Virus record (IMG/VR): IMGVR_UViG_3300043438_001944
Span: 51,692-71,691 of that record
Origin: an uncultured virus (IMG/VR IMGVR_UViG_3300043438_001944)
Lineage: Duplodnaviria; Heunggongvirae; Uroviricota; Caudoviricetes
Length of the DNA: 20,000 nt
Reading direction: 5' to 3' (one strand)
In this document: one piece after another, positions 1-14,184 of the stretch
How positions within the stretch are numbered: position 1 is the first letter of the stretch
Layout: each line of letters opens with the position of its first letter
The notes under the pieces: model-generated
Told to the model about the DNA's origin: nothing
Seen by the model: only the letters and a program-made list of their open reading frames with translations
Databases searched by the model: none
Program-made: the position numbers and the translations under genes

Positions 1-262
1 CTTCGTTAGTTACACTCTCAACCCATATGTGGTCGTCGGCATCATACCATATGTTTTCAGGTGAGTTTTTGAACGTACCGTCAATTCTCCATTCAATCCA
101 ATTGACTATATTTCGTGTTGTTTCGGTTTTACCTGCCATTTCGAGGTAAACCATGAATAATTGAAAACATAACGCAAATAATATCCAAAATCCAGCAAAG
201 AAGATGAATAGGTGAGCAAGTTTATGTCCTAGGGTGATTGATAGAGATTTGATTTTTTCCAT
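1..262 (-). CDS. Hypothetical membrane protein, N-terminal part (runs off the window start)
   Basis: Manual translation from ATG at 262: MEKIKSLSITLGHKLAHLFIFFAGFWILFALCFQLFMVYLEMAGKTETTRNIVNWIEWRIDGTFKNSPENIWYDADDHIWVESVTNE..., open to the edge; hydrophobic N-terminal segment; GATATTTATT motif upstream (347-338). Confidence 0.8.
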   Translation of the reverse strand, partial: MEKIKSLSITLGHKLAHLFIFFAGFWILFALCFQLFMVYLEMAGKTETTRNIVNWIEWRIDGTFKNSPENIWYDADDHIWVESVTNE

Positions 263-386: not shown

Positions 387-418
387 ATTGATTATATACA
401 TATTTATTAGTACCTTTA
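387..418 (+). promoter_or_regulatory. Bacteroidota sigma-A-like promoter for the leader/tRNA cluster
   Basis: ATTG (387-390), 20 nt, TACCTTTA (411-418); one mismatch in each element versus TTTG/TAnnTTTG. Confidence 0.5.
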
Positions 419-437
419 TAAAAATAAACAAATTTCA

Positions 438-536
438 ATGAGACAAATAACATATACAACGTCGTTCATGAATCCGCAAATTACGTGGAATGAGCAACCT
501 ATGTCCATATGTCTCGATGATACTGATGTTGGTTAA
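438..536 (+). CDS. Putative attenuator leader peptide, 32 aa (MRQITYTTSFMNPQITWNEQPMSICLDDTDVG)
   Basis: ATG 438 to TAA 536 with A-rich upstream context, followed by a terminator; its 3' end forms an alternative hairpin with the terminator 5' arm. Confidence 0.65.
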   Translation: MRQITYTTSFMNPQITWNEQPMSICLDDTDVG

Positions 537-559
537 TTTAGTTTAACTTAAAATATTAG

Positions 560-600
560 AAAACCTCGGGACTTAAAAATCTCGAGGTTTTTTGTTTTTT
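560..600 (+). terminator. Intrinsic terminator (attenuator) between the leader ORF and the tRNA cluster
   Basis: AAAACCTCGGGA (560-571) pairs with TCTCGAGGTTTT (580-591), followed by a T-rich tail to 600. Confidence 0.8.
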
Positions 601-618
601 ATATAAAACGAGTAATAT

Positions 619-693
619 AGGGTAATGGACTAATGGCTAAGTCACTTGCTTTGGGAGCAAGGTATCATGGAGGTTCGAGTCCTCTTTACCCTA
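619..693 (+). tRNA. trnP: tRNA-Pro(TGG)
   Basis: Acceptor AGGGTAA/TTACCCT; anticodon arm CTTGC-TTTGGGA-GCAAG; T arm GGAGG-TTCGAGT-CCTCT. Confidence 0.92.
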
Positions 694-698
694 CAATT

Positions 699-770
699 GT
701 TGATGTAGCTTAATGGTGAAGCTTTCGGCTGTTAACCGAACGACTATAGGTTCGAGTCCTATCATCAACG
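699..770 (+). tRNA. trnN: tRNA-Asn(GTT)
   Basis: Acceptor GTTGATG/CATCAAC; anticodon arm TTCGG-CTGTTAA-CCGAA; T arm ATAGG-TTCGAGT-CCTAT; G73. Confidence 0.93.
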
Positions 771-775
771 CAAAC

Positions 776-847
776 ATCCGTGTAGTTCAATTGGTAGAAC
801 GCCGCTCTCCAAAAGCGTAGATGAAGGTTCGAGTCCTTACATGGGTG
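776..847 (+). tRNA. trnW: tRNA-Trp(CCA)
   Basis: Acceptor ATCCGTG/CATGGGT; D arm GTTC/GAAC; anticodon loop CTCCAAA; T loop TTCGAGT; single mismatches in the anticodon and T stems. Confidence 0.85.
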
Positions 848-852
848 CATAT

Positions 853-923
853 TGTCCTTTAGTATAGCGGTAGTACAAGTGGTTTTGGTCCATCTAGCTG
901 TGGTTCGAATCCACGAGGGACAT
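853..923 (+). tRNA. trnQ: tRNA-Gln(TTG)
   Basis: Acceptor TGTCCTT/AGGGACA; anticodon arm AGTGG-TTTTGGT-CCATC; T arm TGTGG-TTCGAAT-CCACG. Confidence 0.9.
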
Positions 924-929
924 CAACAA

Positions 930-1000
930 TGCGGGGAGGAGGGTTCCCAACCAGTCTCATAAGCTGTGTTTTTCAGTTTCGACTACTGGCCCCGCAACCA
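930..1000 (+). tRNA. Atypical tRNA-Met(CAT) with reduced D arm and encoded CCA
   Basis: Acceptor TGCGGGG/CCCCGCA plus ACCA (initiator-like); anticodon loop CTCATAA; T arm TCAGT-TTCGACT-ACTGG; D region only ~14 nt. Confidence 0.75.
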
Positions 1001-1044: not shown

Positions 1045-1284
1045 ATGGAAGACAATGTAATAAACAGGTTGGTGCCAAGATTAAGGAAAATAGGTGTTAA
1101 TGTGGAACTATTTGGAAATTATCCTTGGATATACTTGGATAAGGTAAATGGTAATAAAGTAAAACGAGAAGATTTCTTTGAAGGAAATCACGGATTTACA
1201 ATTGCTTTCTTACCTTTGAAGGATGAAAAGATGGAGTTAACCGACATAAAAGAAGTTTTTAAAATAATAAGAAAATATAAATAA
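1045..1284 (+). CDS. Hypothetical phage protein, 79 aa
   Basis: ORF track; A-rich start context; tandem with the next two ORFs. Confidence 0.8.
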   Translation: MEDNVINRLVPRLRKIGVNVELFGNYPWIYLDKVNGNKVKREDFFEGNHGFTIAFLPLKDEKMELTDIKEVFKIIRKYK

Positions 1285-1988: not shown

Positions 1989-2020
1989 TTTGGTATATTC
2001 ATAATTATTTCTTATCTTTG
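1989..2020 (+). promoter_or_regulatory. Bacteroidota sigma-A promoter
   Basis: TTTG (1989-1992), 20 nt, TATCTTTG (2013-2020); exact consensus. Confidence 0.75.
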
Positions 2021-2042
2021 TAGGAGAATAAACCTTTGAAAT

Positions 2043-2171
2043 ATGGCTAAAGCTCCAAGAACATCGAGAAGAGTTGCGAAAAAGGCTAGTAAAGCTTTAA
2101 GAAGTAAGAAATCGAGTAGAACCACAAAAACCCTTGCGGGTTCGGCTTTAAGACAACGAAGAAGAAAATAA
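2043..2171 (+). CDS. Small highly basic protein, 42 aa (MAKAPRTSRRVAKKASKALRSKKSSRTTKTLAGSALRQRRRK)
   Basis: Manual translation ATG 2043 to TAA 2171, 22 nt after a consensus promoter; 17 K/R, no acidic residues. Confidence 0.75.
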   Translation: MAKAPRTSRRVAKKASKALRSKKSSRTTKTLAGSALRQRRRK

Positions 2172-2269
2172 AATATTGGTTGATTGGGATTTAACGGGGC
2201 TAGCGAATAGCGAGAAACGCCAATCATAAAAACAGATGTCCACACCCCCATCTTCTGTTTTCCATAGTG

Positions 2270-2342
2270 GCCCGAATAGCTCAGTTGGTAGAGCAGCTGA
2301 TTTGTAATCAGCAGGTCGTCAGTTCGAGTCTGACTTTGGGCT
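2270..2342 (+). tRNA. trnT: tRNA-Thr(TGT)
   Basis: Acceptor GCCCGAA/TTTGGGC; D arm GCTC/GAGC; anticodon arm GCTGA-TTTGTAA-TCAGC; T arm GTCAG-TTCGAGT-CTGAC. Confidence 0.95.
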
Positions 2343-6849: not shown

Positions 6850-6934
6850 GCCTGGGTGATGAAATGGTATACATGACAGACTTAAAATCTGTTGAGCAGA
6901 AACGCTCGTGCGGGTTCAAGTCCCGCTCCAGGTA
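6850..6934 (+). tRNA. trnL: tRNA-Leu(TAA)
   Basis: Acceptor GCCTGGG/TCCAGGT; anticodon arm ACAGA-CTTAAAA-TCTGT; long variable arm; T arm GCGGG-TTCAAGT-CCCGC; A73. Confidence 0.95.
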
Positions 6935-8892: not shown

Positions 8893-8951
8893 TTTGTTTT
8901 TATAAAAATTTTCCTTACCTTTGTAAAAGAAACAAGAAATAGTTCTTTGAA
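8893..8951 (+). promoter_or_regulatory. Bacteroidota sigma-A promoter plus boxA-like element for the large ncRNA
   Basis: TTTG (8893-8896), 19 nt, TACCTTTG (8916-8923); AGTTCTTTGAA at 8941-8951. Confidence 0.75.
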
Positions 8952-8959
8952 TTAAAAAT

Positions 8960-9762
8960 ATTGGCCGCCTATGGTCAACAAAATAAACCATGAAAGTGGG
9001 ATAAAGTGATTTCATTTGGTTGAATGAGATTGCGGTTTTAGAAATAGAACTCGAGTAGGCAAGCAAGATATCATTGAACCTTAAGTACTGAGGGTAACAC
9101 TGTAGGGAAAGTGGTTTAGTGACCAAGCGATGCAGGTCGTTTGGTTGAGTTCGGAAGAACAATAAGAATAACTTGTAGAATTATTACAAGAAGTAGGACC
9201 TCCAATCTTACAATTGTGTGATTCAATATAATGGGAATTTTAAAACCGAAAGGTATGGTAGTGTACAAGTGGTGTTGTTACTATCCTTAATTAGACCCTA
9301 CCAAGGGTTTAGTTTTGAAGAGGTCCAAAAATATGGAGGCAGGGATGTCTCAGAGAGTAGTTTAGTATCGAGTCGCTCAAAAGGTGGCTTGGCTGGTCGA
9401 CGAACCACTACTTTCCTAATCTGCAAACCAAAAACTTTGTTAATTCAGGTTTAACAACTCATAATTAAAAAGAAAAAGTGTTCGTCAGTCATTGGAGACA
9501 GGTGGCTACTTAGTCGTGAGGGGTTCACGGCCATAAAGGGACTCAATCCCAATATGATTTTTAAGAAAGTTCTCTAAACCCATAAGGTTTAATTGGGATG
9601 GCAATCTCGAAGAGTAATAAGTATTAAAAGAGTATCTGATGACTTAAGGATTGGTTAATCTAATTGACCGCCGCTGAGGATTACTACTCAAAAGGTAGTG
9701 GAAAAGAATGGGAAACAATAATCCGTTCAAAAGATTCTCGTTAAGACATGTATTCTCAGTGT
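8960..9762 (+). ncRNA. Large structured ncRNA (~800 nt), GOLLD-like
   Basis: ORF-poor GC-richer stretch between a promoter and a terminator; many G.U-containing hairpins on + strand; long-range pairings 9103-9116/9403-9418 and 9673-9680/9753-9760; size and tRNA-rich phage context fit GOLLD; family not verified by a covariance model. Confidence 0.7.
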
Positions 9763-11580: not shown

Positions 11581-11640
11581 AGGGTTAAAATTTGTTTTTT
11601 AACCCTTTTTTCACTATCTTTGTATCATAGTTCTTTAAAA
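11581..11640 (+). promoter_or_regulatory. Terminator hairpin overlapping a sigma-A promoter and boxA-like element for tmRNA
   Basis: AGGGTTAAAA/TTTTAACCCT plus T run; TTTG (11591-11594), 20 nt, TATCTTTG (11615-11622); AGTTCTTTAAAA (11629-11640). Confidence 0.7.
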
Positions 11641-11643
11641 TAT

Positions 11644-12035
11644 GGGGGTGCCTGGCATTGATTTCAGGTATCGGGAATAAGTGGCACGTAGTCAGACTTC
11701 ATCTATGACTTAAATCTACGGTGGAAAATTTCAAACGGCAACGTTTACAAAAACATGGAAATTGCAGGTTTACTTGCAACTTCCAACGTAGCAGTAGCCT
11801 AAGGCGAAACTACAATCGGGTCGACTGGCATATAACCTAGGAACAGAAGCCTTCAAGGTGTAACACCACTTAGAGTGTTGGAGCAAATCTGACGGCTCTT
11901 GAAAATCCGGTTAGGAACAGTATTGATGGTTTCCTGTAATTAACCTTCTATTTGTCTGTTGAGAACCAATAGAATAAACGTGTAGTCATTTATTGTTGAA
12001 CAGGAAAGACACGGGTTCGAGTCCCGTCACCTCCA
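11644..12035 (+). ncRNA. ssrA: tmRNA (one-piece)
   Basis: 5' GGGGGTG pairs with 3' CACCTCC with G3.U70 and A73; GAC-ACGGG-TTCGAGT-CCCGT T arm; tag frame 11737-11802 (GNVYKNMEIAGLLATSNVAVA*); 392 nt. Confidence 0.93.
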
Positions 12036-12080
12036 CAAAGCTTCTTAGCCGTAGCTTTTTTGATTAGTAAAGTAAATAGG

Positions 12081-13152: not shown

Positions 13153-14184
13153 TTAATTATCAGGTAACGCATTAGGGTCATTTAATGCTCCTCTTTTACT
13201 TGAAGTACCACCACTATTATTGTTACTATTACTATTACTATTTCCACCACCTAAACTAGGTATACCACCACCTAAACTAGGTACACTACTCCCTCCATTA
13301 AAAAATCCACACAGAGTTGAACTTAATCGACAAGCGACTACTCGTAAAGCATCCATCCCTGTTATTCCACCAACAATAACTGCCAAAAGTAAAATACCGA
13401 GAGCCCAACCAACGGCACCCTTTGCGGCACCAAGTACTAAACCTCCTTTATTTAAAGTACCTATAACAGTATTAAACCAATTTGATACTTTTGGGTCCGT
13501 TCCCTTAGGGAATCTAGATAAATATTTTTCCGTATTTGTTAAAAATTGAGCTTGTGTTACACCATTACAGTTTAATTGTAACCATTCCACTATCATTTTT
13601 TTCTTTTTAGGGTCTTTTAATAAAACACTAAAAACAGGATCAACCTCAATTAGTTTCAACATATCGTCAGCCATGACTTTAGATCCCAAATTACTACCAA
13701 ATCCACCTGTTGCATTTGGTTTTGGTTTTGGTGTTCCTGATGTGTTTGGTGTTCCTGTTCCCGTTAGTTTTGGTTTTGGTTTAGCGTTCTTTAATTCATT
13801 TGTAAATATTGTTCTAAATTCTGTACCATCTTTTAATGTTCTTGGTAAAAGTGTGGAAATTTCATCCGCAGTCATTCTACCAGAGGCAACAGCATCAATT
13901 GATTTACTAATTGTTGACATCGGTACCCTAGTACCGGCTCTTGAAAGTATAAAAACTTCTCCCGTTGCATCTGCAATTATATTTGTTGCACCTTTACTAA
14001 ATAAAGATTCTAAATTTTTAACAACATCATCACCAAATGAAGCCTCCATTTTATTAACCAATCTACCACCCAAATATTTTGTTAATAATTTGGCCAATGG
14101 ATTCTCATTTATCAATTCTTTGGTTGACTCACCTAAAAGTCTTTTTATTCTCCTAATTTCCTCTTCAATTAAATGTTTCTTCAT
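13153..14184 (-). CDS. Hypothetical probable virion-associated membrane protein, 343 aa
   Basis: N-terminal LIEEEIRRIKRLLGE amphipathic segment, Pro/Lys linker, hydrophobic Gly-rich segment, low-complexity G/N/S tail. Confidence 0.8.
   Translation of the reverse strand: MKKHLIEEEIRRIKRLLGESTKELINENPLAKLLTKYLGGRLVNKMEASFGDDVVKNLESLFSKGATNIIADATGEVFILSRAGTRVPMSTISKSIDAVASGRMTADEISTLLPRTLKDGTEFRTIFTNELKNAKPKPKLTGTGTPNTSGTPKPKPNATGGFGSNLGSKVMADDMLKLIEVDPVFSVLLKDPKKKKMIVEWLQLNCNGVTQAQFLTNTEKYLSRFPKGTDPKVSNWFNTVIGTLNKGGLVLGAAKGAVGWALGILLLAVIVGGITGMDALRVVACRLSSTLCGFFNGGSSVPSLGGGIPSLGGGNSNSNSNNNSGGTSSKRGALNDPNALPDN
13244..13283. repeat. Tandem 19-nt repeat with 21-nt period (PSLGGG x2) within the CDS
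   Basis: CCACCACCTAAACTAGGTA at 13244-13262 and 13265-13283. Confidence 0.8.

What the first reader, a model, noticed from the sequence alone, without database searches (positions are those of the whole stretch)
438..1000. Leader-peptide attenuator whose codons match the downstream tRNA cluster: a candidate tRNA-depletion sensor
Seen: promoter (387-418), a 32-codon ORF (438-536), an intrinsic terminator (560-600), then 18 nt later tRNAs Pro, Asn, Trp, Gln and Met, with no obvious promoter in between. Codons 11-22 read M-N-P-Q-I-T-W-N-E-Q-P-M, so 9 of 12 specify exactly the five amino acids of those tRNAs; T and E tRNAs are in the next cluster. A mutually exclusive hairpin exists: GTCTCGA 511-517 with TCGGGAC 566-572 (the terminator 5' arm), CTGATGTT 523-530 with AATATTAG 552-559, and GGTTAA 531-536 with TTAACT 543-548. 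The stop codon lies near its tip. Established: this is the geometry of trp/his-type ribosome-mediated attenuation, and host anticodon nucleases (PrrC, PARIS AriB) deplete tRNAs and can be countered by phage tRNAs. Inference: a ribosome reaching the stop melts the antiterminator and transcription terminates, while stalling on hungry codons allows read-through. Phage tRNAs would then be made on demand when host tRNAs are cleaved or uncharged. I know of no described leader-peptide attenuator controlling a phage tRNA array.
Basis: partly seen in the sequence, partly recalled or inferred. Interest (0 to 1): 0.93.

Follow-up and report, generated by a model that had tools for sequence, protein, structure and literature searches.

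The report
Codon-matched attenuator gating phage tRNA genes
A large lake phage places a tiny translated test gene, written in the codons read by the tRNA genes just behind it, on a stop/go RNA switch, so it probably makes those tRNAs only when ribosomes run short of them, a control known for amino-acid genes but not found in print for tRNA genes.

Summary
The exception is the fifth tRNA ("Met", 930-1000), which is only a low-scoring tRNA-like call.

Comparative data support the reading. I found 54 homologous leader loci, giving 23 distinct leader sequences with the window's own. All keep an intact 30-32-codon ORF, a 7-bp antiterminator helix and an 8-bp terminator (100% of cells paired in each).

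The shared strand covaries three ways: 517/566/585 is A/U/A in 16 sequences and G/C/G in 7. An inner hairpin always carries the stop codon.

Leaders come in two types at one locus:
- ..SNQLNWNEQP.. precedes Pro-Asn-Trp-(Leu)-Gln.
- ..SFIICSKWADER.. precedes Ala-Ile-Phe-Lys-Trp-Arg-Cys-His.

87-100% of adjacent-cluster tRNAs have a cognate codon in their own leader. Only 34-38% do in the other type's leader. CTA/CTG occurs exactly where tRNA-Leu(UAG) is in the cluster (9 with, 11 without).

The first tRNA starts 7-27 nt after the terminator pattern in type A. Metatranscriptome contigs bridge leader, terminator and tRNAs.

Most likely this is a ribosome-mediated attenuator that meters supply of the tRNAs it controls. 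No experiment exists. The anticodon-nuclease trigger is untested.

Six literature searches found no description. This scan has noted the same family and analogues before on other DNA.

The parts
388..418 (+). Promoter, Bacteroidota two-box type: TTG (388-390), 20-nt spacer, TACCTTTA (411-418)
   Evidence: Motif scan. The block is conserved in relatives, where the second box reads TATCTTTG. The same motif lies 22 nt before the tmRNA and before other units. RNA-library contigs end at 429 and 445, which is only a weak hint of a start near 425-429.
438..536 (+). Leader ORF, 32 codons, MRQITYTTSFMNPQITWNEQPMSICLDDTDVG*
   Evidence: An intact ORF of 28-34 codons is present in 54 of 54 homologous loci. 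The two indels inside the ORF in alignment A2 are 3 nt long. No Pfam or PHROG family matches.
447..500 (+). Sensor segment (codons 4-21): the variable part of the leader, carrying at least one codon for every tRNA of the adjacent cluster
   Evidence: Coverage of own-cluster tRNAs is 87% (strict) to 99% (relaxed) in type A and 100% in type B, against 34-38% for the other type's cluster. In the window, 5 of 5 tRNAs are covered, P about 0.005-0.008.
439..444 (+). Region 1 (tentative): UGAGAC over the start codon, which can pair with 511-516
   Evidence: It pairs this way in the MFE of 425-605. 98% of cells are paired across 18 leaders, but the pairing is broken at 442 in L097/L100 and shows no covariation.
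511..517 (+). Region 2: GUCUCGA, the 5' strand of the antiterminator, inside codons 25-27
   Evidence: It pairs with 566-572. All 161 cells in 23 leaders are paired, and A517-U566 becomes G-C in 7 leaders. The A-to-G change alters the codon (Asp to Gly), so the RNA pairing rather than the peptide is what is kept.
523..559 (+). P2 hairpin nested inside the antiterminator; the stop codon 534-536 lies in its upper 5' strand
   Evidence: In all 23 distinct leaders the MFE of region 2 to region 3 is a 7/7 closing helix plus an inner hairpin that holds the stop codon. The hairpin sequence differs between lineages: GGUUAA/UUAACU, AAGCAA/UUGCUU, CGAUUUAAC/GUUAAAU and others.
564..572 (+). Region 3: CCUCGGGAC, the strand shared by antiterminator and terminator
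   Evidence: There are two forms, CCUCGGGAC (16 leaders) and CCCUGAGAC (7 leaders). Each is always combined with the matching region 2 and a region 4 that pairs.
564..599 (+). Intrinsic terminator: stem 564-571/580-587, loop 572-579, U tract 588-599
   Evidence: Terminator scan. The core is -11.9 kcal/mol, or -15.9 with the A/U extension. All 184 cells in 23 leaders are paired, and 2 pairs change on both sides.
619..924 (+). Regulated genes: tRNA-Pro(UGG) 619-694, Asn(GUU) 699-771, Trp(CCA) 776-848, Gln(UUG) 853-924
   Evidence: ARAGORN and Rfam tRNA at 48.9-71.6 bits. Only 19 nt (600-618) separate the T run from tRNA-Pro.
930..1000 (+). Low-scoring tRNA-like element, anticodon CAU (Met or Ile2); membership of the unit is uncertain
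   Evidence: Called only at ARAGORN -ps85. Not found by default ARAGORN or by Rfam at E<=10. A similar call follows tRNA-Gln in several relatives.

Best explanation
This is a ribosome-mediated (leader-peptide) transcription attenuator that gates a promoterless phage tRNA cluster and reports on the supply of those same tRNAs.

**Proposed sequence of events**
1. Transcription starts at a Bacteroidota-type promoter (388-418). A 32-codon ORF is then translated.
2. Codons 4-21 include at least one codon for each tRNA encoded directly downstream.
3. If any of those codons is read slowly, the ribosome stops upstream of region 2 (511-517).
4. Region 2, brought close by the P2 hairpin, pairs with region 3 (566-572) as soon as region 3 is made.
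5. The terminator (564-587 plus U tract) then cannot form, and RNA polymerase runs on into tRNA-Pro/Asn/Trp/Gln.
6. If decoding is fast, the ribosome runs over region 2 and unwinds P2 up to the stop codon in its upper strand. The antiterminator is lost, the terminator forms and transcription ends at about 600.

Because the sensed codons are those read by the products, the loop closes on itself: enough tRNA shuts off tRNA synthesis.

**Status of the steps**
- Shown by sequence and comparison: all parts, both alternative folds, and the codon/tRNA matching.
- Inferred: translation of the ORF, the direction of the switch, and the physiological trigger.
For: **Anatomy in the window**
- All parts are present.
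- The transcript 425-579, before region 4 exists, folds with the antiterminator. The full leader folds with the terminator.
- Antiterminator plus P2 is -18.1 kcal/mol, against -20.8 to -24.8 for P2 plus terminator. The 2:3 helix without P2 is only -6.3.

**Conservation**
- 54 of 54 homologous loci keep an intact ORF.
- In 23 distinct leaders, the antiterminator is paired in 161 of 161 cells and the terminator in 184 of 184.
- 517/566/585 is A/U/A in 16 leaders and G/C/G in 7, never mixed.
- This covariation includes loci retrieved without constraining both sites: L097/L098/L100 by synteny and L207/L208 by a pattern that left region 3 free.
- In all 23, the region 2 to region 3 fold is a 7/7 closing helix around a hairpin that holds the stop codon.

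**Codon tracking**
- Two leader types precede two different cassettes at one locus.
- Own versus other type: 0.42-0.49 against 0.10 of codons cognate (type A) and 0.35-0.38 against 0.12-0.13 (type B). tRNAs covered: 87-100% against 34-38%.
- Full coverage has P<1e-5 for L037 (9 of 9), 4e-5 for L054 (7 of 7) and 2e-5 for L249 (7 of 7).
- Leu(UAG) tRNA against a CTA/CTG codon: 9 with both, 0 with the tRNA only, 0 with the codon only, 11 with neither. Ala(UGC): 7/0/0/13.
- Among type A leaders, a CGT codon occurs only in L248 and L249. L249 has Arg(ACG) in its first cluster; in L248 that tRNA lies about 570 nt downstream, beyond the first cluster.
- Lys becomes Ile in the core where tRNA-Lys is absent.

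**Tracking is local, not genome-wide**
- In the 97%-complete genome G001, the type-B leader lacks Pro and Asn codons, although Pro, Asn, Leu(UAG) and Gln tRNAs lie 3.4-4.7 kb further on.

**Linkage of leader and cluster**
- Among 74 syntenic loci the leader occurs in 17. In 16 of these a tRNA cluster follows, directly or after about 150 nt; in L086 the locus ends first.
- 18 other loci with plus-strand tRNAs, the first about 1.1 kb or more beyond the gene (locus coordinates), lack the leader.

**No room for a second promoter in most leaders**
- In type A the first tRNA starts 7-27 nt after the terminator pattern.

**RNA libraries**
- Contigs from 3 metatranscriptome runs (2 studies) bridge leader, terminator and tRNAs. 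Two of them end at 429 and 445.
Against: - No experiment exists. Translation of the ORF, termination at 600 and its relief by stalling are all unshown.
- Each tRNA is represented by only one to three codons, not a run as in his or trp. Sensitivity to a single hungry codon is therefore uncertain.
- Tracking is imperfect:
  - Trp codons persist in L039/L107, whose clusters have no called tRNA-Trp.
  - Asn codons persist in L073, L248 and L249, whose first cluster lacks tRNA-Asn.
  - His, Phe, Cys, Arg(CGN) and Met codons often occur without the tRNA in the first cluster.
- For several rows with small clusters the enrichment is weak, with P of 0.04-0.3.
- Rows are related phages. The A/B contrast and the region 2/3/4 covariation may each be only one or two evolutionary events. 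5 of the 7 form-2 leaders came from a pattern that fixed both strands.
- A ribosome at the stop codon would cover roughly 516-548, taking the usual footprint from memory. It would barely touch region 2, so blocking must work through P2 and sterics.
- Pairing of region 1 with region 2 is not conserved, so the state without translation is unclear.
- In 3 of 23 leaders (L037, L245, L252) about 85 nt separate the terminator from the first tRNA-like gene.
- RNA-library contigs can contain DNA and show neither transcript ends nor levels.
Confidence: 0.72

Rival explanations
1. It is an attenuator that senses general translation capacity (ribosome availability, or coupling of ribosome and polymerase) rather than particular tRNAs. 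On this view the codon match carries no regulatory weight.
For: The switch geometry and both folds would serve any translation-sensing attenuator. Each tRNA has only 1-3 codons in the leader. Several sensor codons have no tRNA in the first cluster.
Against: This view does not explain three observations:
- The sensor core was rewritten together with the tRNA cassette, with own-type coverage of 87-100% against 34-38% for the other type.
- CTA/CTG follows Leu(UAG) with counts 9/0/0/11.
- The type-B leader of G001 omits Pro and Asn codons although that phage encodes those tRNAs further downstream.
Confidence: 0.1
2. The ORF is an ordinary small protein gene with its own promoter and terminator. 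The tRNAs are then made by constitutive leak through the terminator or from an unseen start.
For: - The C-terminal ICLDDTDVG and N-terminal MRQ are strongly conserved.
- All four Val codons (GTT/GTC/GTA/GTG) occur at codon 31, which looks like synonymous drift.
- Three leaders have an ~85-nt spacer before the first tRNA-like gene.
Against: - The middle of the peptide is not conserved as protein. It changes in step with the tRNA set.
- The Asp-to-Gly change in the conserved tail goes with compensatory changes at 566 and 585, so the constraint there is on RNA.
- No Pfam or PHROG family matches.
- The leader is never found without a tRNA cluster following it.
- 7-27 nt between the terminator and the first tRNA leaves no room for a two-box promoter.
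Confidence: 0.08
3. The logic is inverted, or the switch is not transcriptional. The alternative folds might govern processing or stability of the tRNA precursor (for example access for RNase P or RNase E), or stalling might favour termination.
For: The hairpin ends only 19-30 nt before the 5' end of the first tRNA, where precursor processing takes place. No data show 3' ends at 600.
Against: - The hairpin is followed by a conserved run of 6 or more U in all 23 leaders, the mark of an intrinsic terminator.
- A stalled ribosome upstream leaves region 2 free, and region 2 pairs with the terminator's 5' arm. This can only weaken the terminator.
Confidence: 0.05

Closest known systems
Multivalent leader-peptide attenuators of enterobacterial amino-acid operons (thr leader for Thr/Ile, ilvGMEDA leader for Ile/Leu/Val; also trpL, hisL, leuL, pheL). 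Named from memory; general principle as in the abstract of PMC1183508.
   Same: Both have a short translated leader with regulatory codons. Both have an intrinsic terminator and an antiterminator that shares one strand with it. In both, a ribosome stalled upstream frees the antiterminator strand, while a ribosome that finishes the ORF favours termination. More than one kind of codon is sensed.
   Different: - The regulated genes here are tRNA genes, not biosynthetic enzymes.
- The sensor holds single codons for up to nine different tRNAs rather than runs of one or two.
- The stop codon lies inside a scaffold hairpin nested in the antiterminator.
- The host promoter type is Bacteroidota and the element is phage-borne.
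- There is no sequence or Rfam relation: His_leader scores 22-25 bits against a gathering score of 49.
pheM leader of the E. coli pheST operon (attenuation control of phenylalanyl-tRNA synthetase; recalled, not checked in a paper here)
   Same: Both are leader-peptide attenuators that control a component of the translation apparatus, and both respond to how well the cognate codons are decoded.
   Different: pheM controls a synthetase and senses one amino acid. The element here controls the tRNAs themselves and senses several.
T-box riboswitches
   Same: Both are transcription attenuators with terminator and antiterminator alternatives that report on tRNA status for translation-related genes.
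   Different: A T-box binds uncharged tRNA directly and needs no ribosome or ORF. Here there is a conserved ORF, and no T-box match was listed in Rfam at gathering score over the window or at E<=10 over 380-1100.
Earlier notes of this scan on phage tRNA leaders (e1-5699919 and e1-5699930 for the same sequence family on another genome; e1-2978539, e1-5830176, e1-5359011, e1-5368003 for analogous modules)
   Same: Those notes describe a 32-codon mini-gene with one codon for each downstream tRNA, and a 7-base stretch pairing with the first terminator arm that is kept through matched mutations. They reach the same reading.
   Different: They are unpublished AI notes on other DNA. The window here is a further member with a Pro-Asn-Trp-Gln cassette. 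I re-derived the evidence independently before reading them.

Membership tests
Ribosome-mediated (leader-peptide) transcription attenuators | Short ORF in the 5' leader, conserved as an open frame | tested here: met
   32 codons at 438-536. Intact in 54 of 54 homologous loci. Indels inside the ORF are 3 nt long.
Ribosome-mediated (leader-peptide) transcription attenuators | Regulatory codons in the leader correspond to the product of the regulated genes | tested here: met
   87-100% of own-cluster tRNAs have a cognate codon in the sensor segment, against 34-38% for the other type's cluster. Simulated P for full coverage reaches below 1e-5.
Ribosome-mediated (leader-peptide) transcription attenuators | Intrinsic terminator between leader ORF and regulated genes | tested here: met
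   Stem plus T run. All 184 cells are paired in 23 leaders, with 2 compensatory pairs.
Ribosome-mediated (leader-peptide) transcription attenuators | Antiterminator mutually exclusive with the terminator, sharing one strand | tested here: met
   511-517 pairs with 566-572. All 161 cells are paired, with one compensatory pair tied to the terminator change. It forms in the MFE of the transcript that ends before region 4.
Ribosome-mediated (leader-peptide) transcription attenuators | ORF placed so that a stalled ribosome frees the antiterminator strand and a finishing ribosome blocks it | tested here: inconclusive
   Sensor codons end 11 nt before region 2, and the stop codon lies in P2 in 23 of 23 leaders. 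This fits the model. However, a ribosome at the stop would hardly cover region 2 itself, taking the footprint size from memory.
Ribosome-mediated (leader-peptide) transcription attenuators | Read-through depends on translation of the leader and on charged-tRNA supply | not testable with these tools
   This needs reporter, Term-seq or in vitro assays. RNA-library contigs only show that bridged molecules exist.
Classical attenuators of amino-acid operons (trp/his/thr/leu/ilv/pheA) | Regulated genes encode amino-acid biosynthesis enzymes | tested here: not met
   The genes downstream are tRNA-Pro, Asn, Trp and Gln.
Rfam leader families (His_leader RF00514 and others) | Score at or above the family's gathering score | tested here: not met
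   The best match is His_leader at 24.8 bits (minus strand, 554-706) and 22.1 bits (plus strand, 499-597), against 49. Only tRNA matches pass in 380-1100.
T-box riboswitch | Match to the T-box model (specifier loop, T-box antiterminator bulge) | tested here: not met
   No T-box match was listed at gathering score in the window or at E<=10 in 380-1100.

The most novel reading that the evidence does not exclude
The leader is a modular, multi-input OR-gate meter of tRNA supply whose sensor core is rewritten whenever the tRNA cassette behind it is exchanged. Its natural trigger would be the loss of host tRNAs during infection: cleavage by host anticodon nucleases or other tRNA-targeting defences, or degradation of host tRNA by the phage itself. 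The phage would then deploy exactly the replacement tRNAs that are being depleted, and stop once decoding recovers. If so, phage tRNA arrays would be inducible, self-limiting counter-defence units, and the sensor codons would name the tRNAs under attack in the host.
Probability: 0.3. Interest if true: 0.92.

Novelty: new variant of a known kind. Interest (0 to 1): 0.82.

Why it matters
Phage tRNA genes are usually treated as constitutively expressed helpers for codon usage or as spares against tRNA-cleaving defences. How their expression is controlled is largely unknown.

A leader-peptide attenuator whose codons are those of the tRNAs it gates would be a closed feedback loop on decoding capacity. 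The ribosome would measure tRNA supply directly and set tRNA transcription.

- It extends a textbook mechanism (trp/his attenuation) to RNA genes, to Bacteroidota phages and to a many-input design.
- It gives a sequence rule that can be tested by simple reporter experiments: the sensor codons should equal the adjacent tRNA set.
- It offers a way to read from sequence which tRNAs a phage expects to run short of.
- The compact switch could also serve as a tRNA-supply sensor for synthetic biology.

Tried and rejected
- **Phage GenBank records.** The search matched only through tRNA similarity and found no annotated relative.
- **Terminator pattern scan.** It returned 32 loci, of which only 9 were true leaders. 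The others carry a look-alike 37-nt terminator repeat and were set aside.
- **Metagenome scan.** The first pattern broke the tool's pattern rule. The metagenome collection was therefore not really surveyed.
- **Peptide-based scan.** It added only one new contig (L287).
- **Search for a second copy.** The 97%-complete relative G001 has one copy, and the complete relative G002 has none at E<0.3. Three other large contigs were not held and were not searched.
- **Region 1 as anti-antiterminator (439-444 with 511-516).** It is predicted in the window but broken in L097/L100 without compensation, so I keep it only as tentative.
- **Leader peptide as a known protein.** It has no Pfam or PHROG match.
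- **Second attenuator in the window.** I looked before tRNA-Leu(UAA) at 6850 and found none.
- **Stretches without cover in the RNA runs.** These say nothing either way.
- **Not run.** I did not run complex prediction, structure prediction or the large protein searches, because a 32-residue sensor peptide gives them nothing to test.
Full report
**Context**

The window is the last 20 kb of a 71.7-kb viral contig that CheckV rates 21% complete, so it comes from a very large phage. It carries 11 tRNA genes, a tmRNA and a GOLLD RNA. Earlier notes of this scan on related DNA call these phages T4-like phages of freshwater Flavobacterium-type Bacteroidota. I did not test that, but the promoter motif found here fits.

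**Checking the observation**

- The 32-codon ORF 438-536 exists.
- The terminator scan calls a stem at 557-594 followed by a T run. Its G+C core is 564-571 paired with 580-587.
- tRNA-Pro begins at 619, followed by Asn, Trp and Gln.
- The 'promoter 387-418' is TTG-N20-TACCTTTA, which is the Bacteroidota two-box type as I recall the consensus. Relatives have TATCTTTG there, and the same motif stands 22 nt before the tmRNA and before other units in the window.
- The fifth tRNA ('Met') is weak. It is called at 930-1000 only at ARAGORN's 85% threshold, not by default ARAGORN and not by Rfam at E<=10.
- Codons 11-22 hold 9 of 12 cognate codons, or 8 under strict wobble. With this phage's codon usage, a best 12-codon window that good arises in 2.5e-4 (9 or more) or 1.3e-3 (8 or more, strict) of random 31-codon ORFs.

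**Finding relatives**

GenBank phages gave only tRNA matches. True homologues came from these searches:

| Search | Result |
|---|---|
| Terminator pattern | 9 true leaders among 32 loci |
| Start plus region 2 pattern | 19 loci |
| Synteny with the divergent upstream 217-aa gene | 74 loci, leader in 17 |
| Pattern for the second switch form | 8 true of 9 |
| Peptide-based scan | 1 new contig |

Altogether nhmmer finds the leader in 54 loci. All 54 have an intact ORF of 28-34 codons. With the window, these give 23 distinct leader sequences.

**The switch**

- In the 23 distinct leaders, the antiterminator helix (511-517 with 566-572) is paired in 161 of 161 cells, and the terminator stem in 184 of 184.
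- The three strands occur in two matched forms:
  - GUCUCGA / CCUCGGGAC / UCUCG(A/G)GG in 16 leaders (one has GUCUUGA, still paired).
  - GUCUCGG / CCCUGAGAC / UCUC(G/A)GGG in 7 leaders.
- Position 566 therefore changes together with both of its alternative partners, 517 and 585.
- The change at 517 turns an Asp codon into Gly, so RNA pairing rather than the peptide is preserved.
- Five of the seven form-2 leaders came from a pattern that fixed regions 2 and 3. However, L097/L098/L100 (found by synteny) and L207/L208 (found with region 3 unconstrained) show the same match.
- Both forms occur in both leader types, so this is one or a few evolutionary events, not seven.
- In all 23 leaders the fold from region 2 to region 3 is a 7/7 closing helix around an inner hairpin. 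That hairpin's sequence differs between lineages, but it always holds the stop codon in its upper 5' strand.

Energies in the window:

| Structure | kcal/mol |
|---|---|
| Antiterminator plus P2 | -18.1 |
| P2 plus terminator | -20.8 to -24.8 |
| 2:3 helix without P2 | -6.3 |

The transcript 425-579, before region 4 exists, folds with the antiterminator. The full leader folds with the terminator. This is the usual kinetic arrangement of an attenuator.

**The codon match**

Leaders fall into two types at the same locus:
- Type A: core ..S N Q (L) N W N E Q P.. This precedes Pro, Asn, Trp, (Leu UAG), Gln and sometimes His, Met-like or Arg(ACG).
- Type B: core ..S F (I/T) I C S K W A D E R.. This precedes Ala(UGC, low-scoring), Ile, Phe, Lys, Trp, Arg(ACG), Cys and His.

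The flanks of the ORF, the switch and the more distal tRNAs (Asp, Ser, Glu, Leu UAA) are shared.

I used 20 of the 23 leaders, dropping three with fewer than 400 nt of downstream sequence. Results:

| Measure | Type A, own cluster | Type A, other type | Type B, own cluster | Type B, other type |
|---|---|---|---|---|
| Sensor codons cognate | 0.42-0.49 | 0.10 | 0.35-0.38 | 0.12-0.13 |
| Cluster tRNAs with a codon in the leader | 87-99% | 34% | 100% | 38% |

Against random codons drawn from phage usage, full coverage has these probabilities:
- P<1e-5 for L037 (9 of 9 tRNAs).
- 4e-5 for L054 (7 of 7).
- 2e-5 for L249 (7 of 7).
- About 0.005-0.008 for the window (5 of 5).
- For small clusters the test is weak, with P up to 0.3.

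Finer tracking:
- CTA/CTG is present in the 9 leaders whose cluster has Leu(UAG) and absent in the 11 without it. The codon sits at different positions in different leaders.
- An Ala codon goes with tRNA-Ala, 7 leaders with both against 13 with neither.
- CGT occurs in type A only in L248 and L249, which have Arg(ACG) downstream. It is in the first cluster only in L249.
- The core Lys is Ile where tRNA-Lys is missing.

Failures of tracking:
- Trp codons persist without a called tRNA-Trp in L039/L107.
- Asn codons persist without tRNA-Asn in the first cluster in L073, L248 and L249.
- His, Phe, Cys, Arg and Met codons often lack a partner in the first cluster.

The firm rule is one-directional: every adjacent tRNA has a codon in the leader.

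**Tracking is local**

In the 97%-complete relative G001 there is one leader copy, and all convincing tRNAs lie at 110,388-115,416. Its type-B leader lacks Pro and Asn codons, although Pro, Asn, Leu(UAG) and Gln tRNAs lie 3.4-4.7 kb further on.

**Linkage and transcription**

- Among the 74 syntenic loci, the leader occurs in 17. In 16 of these a tRNA cluster follows, directly or after about 150 nt; in L086 the locus ends first.
- 18 other loci with plus-strand tRNAs, the first about 1.1 kb or more beyond the gene (locus coordinates), lack the leader.
- In type A the first tRNA starts 7-27 nt after the terminator pattern, which leaves no room for a two-box promoter.
- In type B the first tRNA-like gene starts at 8-9 nt in four leaders and at about 85 nt in three.
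- Contigs from three metatranscriptome runs of two studies join leader, terminator and downstream tRNAs:
  - X15: 429-617 plus 771-935.
  - X16: 445-617 plus 771-860.
  - X19: 486-672.
- The first two contigs end at 429 and 445, near the predicted start. Contigs cannot prove transcript ends or levels, and RNA libraries can hold DNA, so this is a weak hint of co-transcription.

**Mechanism**

The best reading is classical ribosome-mediated attenuation.
- A ribosome held on a hungry sensor codon (codons 4-21, ending 11 nt before region 2) leaves region 2 free. Region 2 then pairs with region 3, with P2 as scaffold, and polymerase reads through.
- A ribosome that finishes the ORF passes over region 2 and unwinds P2 up to the stop codon, so the terminator forms.
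- Because the sensed codons are decoded by the products, the unit would be self-limiting.

Still inferred: that the ORF is translated, the direction of the switch, and the trigger. A ribosome at the stop would barely cover region 2 (footprint size recalled), so blocking must act through P2. The proposed 1:2 pairing is not conserved.

**Comparison with what is known**

- It works like the multivalent thr and ilv attenuators and, for a translation component, like the pheM-pheST leader (both recalled).
- It is not a member of any Rfam leader family: His_leader scores 22-25 bits against 49. It is not a T-box.
- Its targets are tRNA genes, which fails the 'biosynthetic operon' criterion of the classical family.
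- Six full-text searches found no description of a leader-peptide attenuator before tRNA genes. I read listings and abstracts only, plus one passage of PMC3082878 that proved irrelevant. Subscription literature is not covered.
- This scan has noted the same family on another genome (e1-5699919, e1-5699930) and analogous modules in other phages. I reached the same reading before seeing those notes.

**Verdict**

The attenuator reading is supported by conservation, covariation and codon/tRNA tracking. It is a new variant of a known kind of control. It has not been tested experimentally, and the defence-triggered reading remains open.

Noticed in passing
window 9353-9762: GOLLD RNA (Rfam RF02032, 298.8 bits). 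A promoter-like TTG-N19-TACCTTTG stands at 8894-8923.
   Followed up: no
window 11644-12036: Phage tmRNA with tag peptide ATSNVAVA. The same promoter motif (..TATCTTTG) ends 22 nt upstream, at 11592-11622.
   Followed up: partly
window 930-1000: A low-scoring tRNA-like element with anticodon CAU follows tRNA-Gln, and a T run follows it. It is called only at a relaxed ARAGORN threshold. A similar call follows tRNA-Gln in several relatives. It could be a degenerate tRNA-Met or tRNA-Ile2.
   Followed up: partly
L246 2591-2660; also L037, L051, L038, L049, L245, L252: Every type-B cluster begins with an odd, low-scoring tRNA-Ala(UGC): Rfam 30.1 bits, ARAGORN only at the 85% threshold. Type-B leaders alone carry an Ala codon.
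   Followed up: partly
window 1990-2270: A second unit: a promoter-like motif at 1990-2020, a 42-aa very basic ORF at 2043-2171 (phrog_5079, unknown function), then a weak hairpin with a T run just before tRNA-Thr at 2270. The ORF is conserved in L107. Its codons do not obviously match the following tRNAs.
   Followed up: no
L259 about 13865-14060 (G001 112,865-113,060): In the near-complete relative G001 there is a second, non-homologous module: a TATATTTG box, a 36-codon ORF (MKNINNILTLTSRPVNNGNGYGVQPLYYLCSDINKG) and a G+C hairpin with a T run. It lies ahead of Leu(UAA), Arg(UCU), Pro, Asn, Leu(UAG), Tyr, Met, Val, Gly, Thr, Gly, Gln and Ser, and most of those amino acids occur in the ORF. 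A further promoter-like box lies between it and the first tRNA. The window has no counterpart.
   Followed up: partly
window 1045-1284: A 79-aa ORF (phrog_38683, unknown function) is embedded in the tRNA region. In G001 its homologue sits between tRNA-Trp and tRNA-Arg(ACG), inside the type-B cassette.
   Followed up: no
L002-L006, L011, L013, L015-L019, L021, L024-L028, L031-L033: Unrelated viral contigs carry a 37-nt look-alike of the terminator (81-87% identical). It is often repeated at spacings of about 600-750 nt.
   Followed up: no
window 2-262 (minus strand; full gene L001 730-1383): The divergent upstream gene encodes a 217-aa protein with a hydrophobic N-terminus and a sub-threshold Lipoprotein_16 match (23.5 bits against 25). 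It is conserved in 74 viral loci, most of them without the leader.
   Followed up: partly
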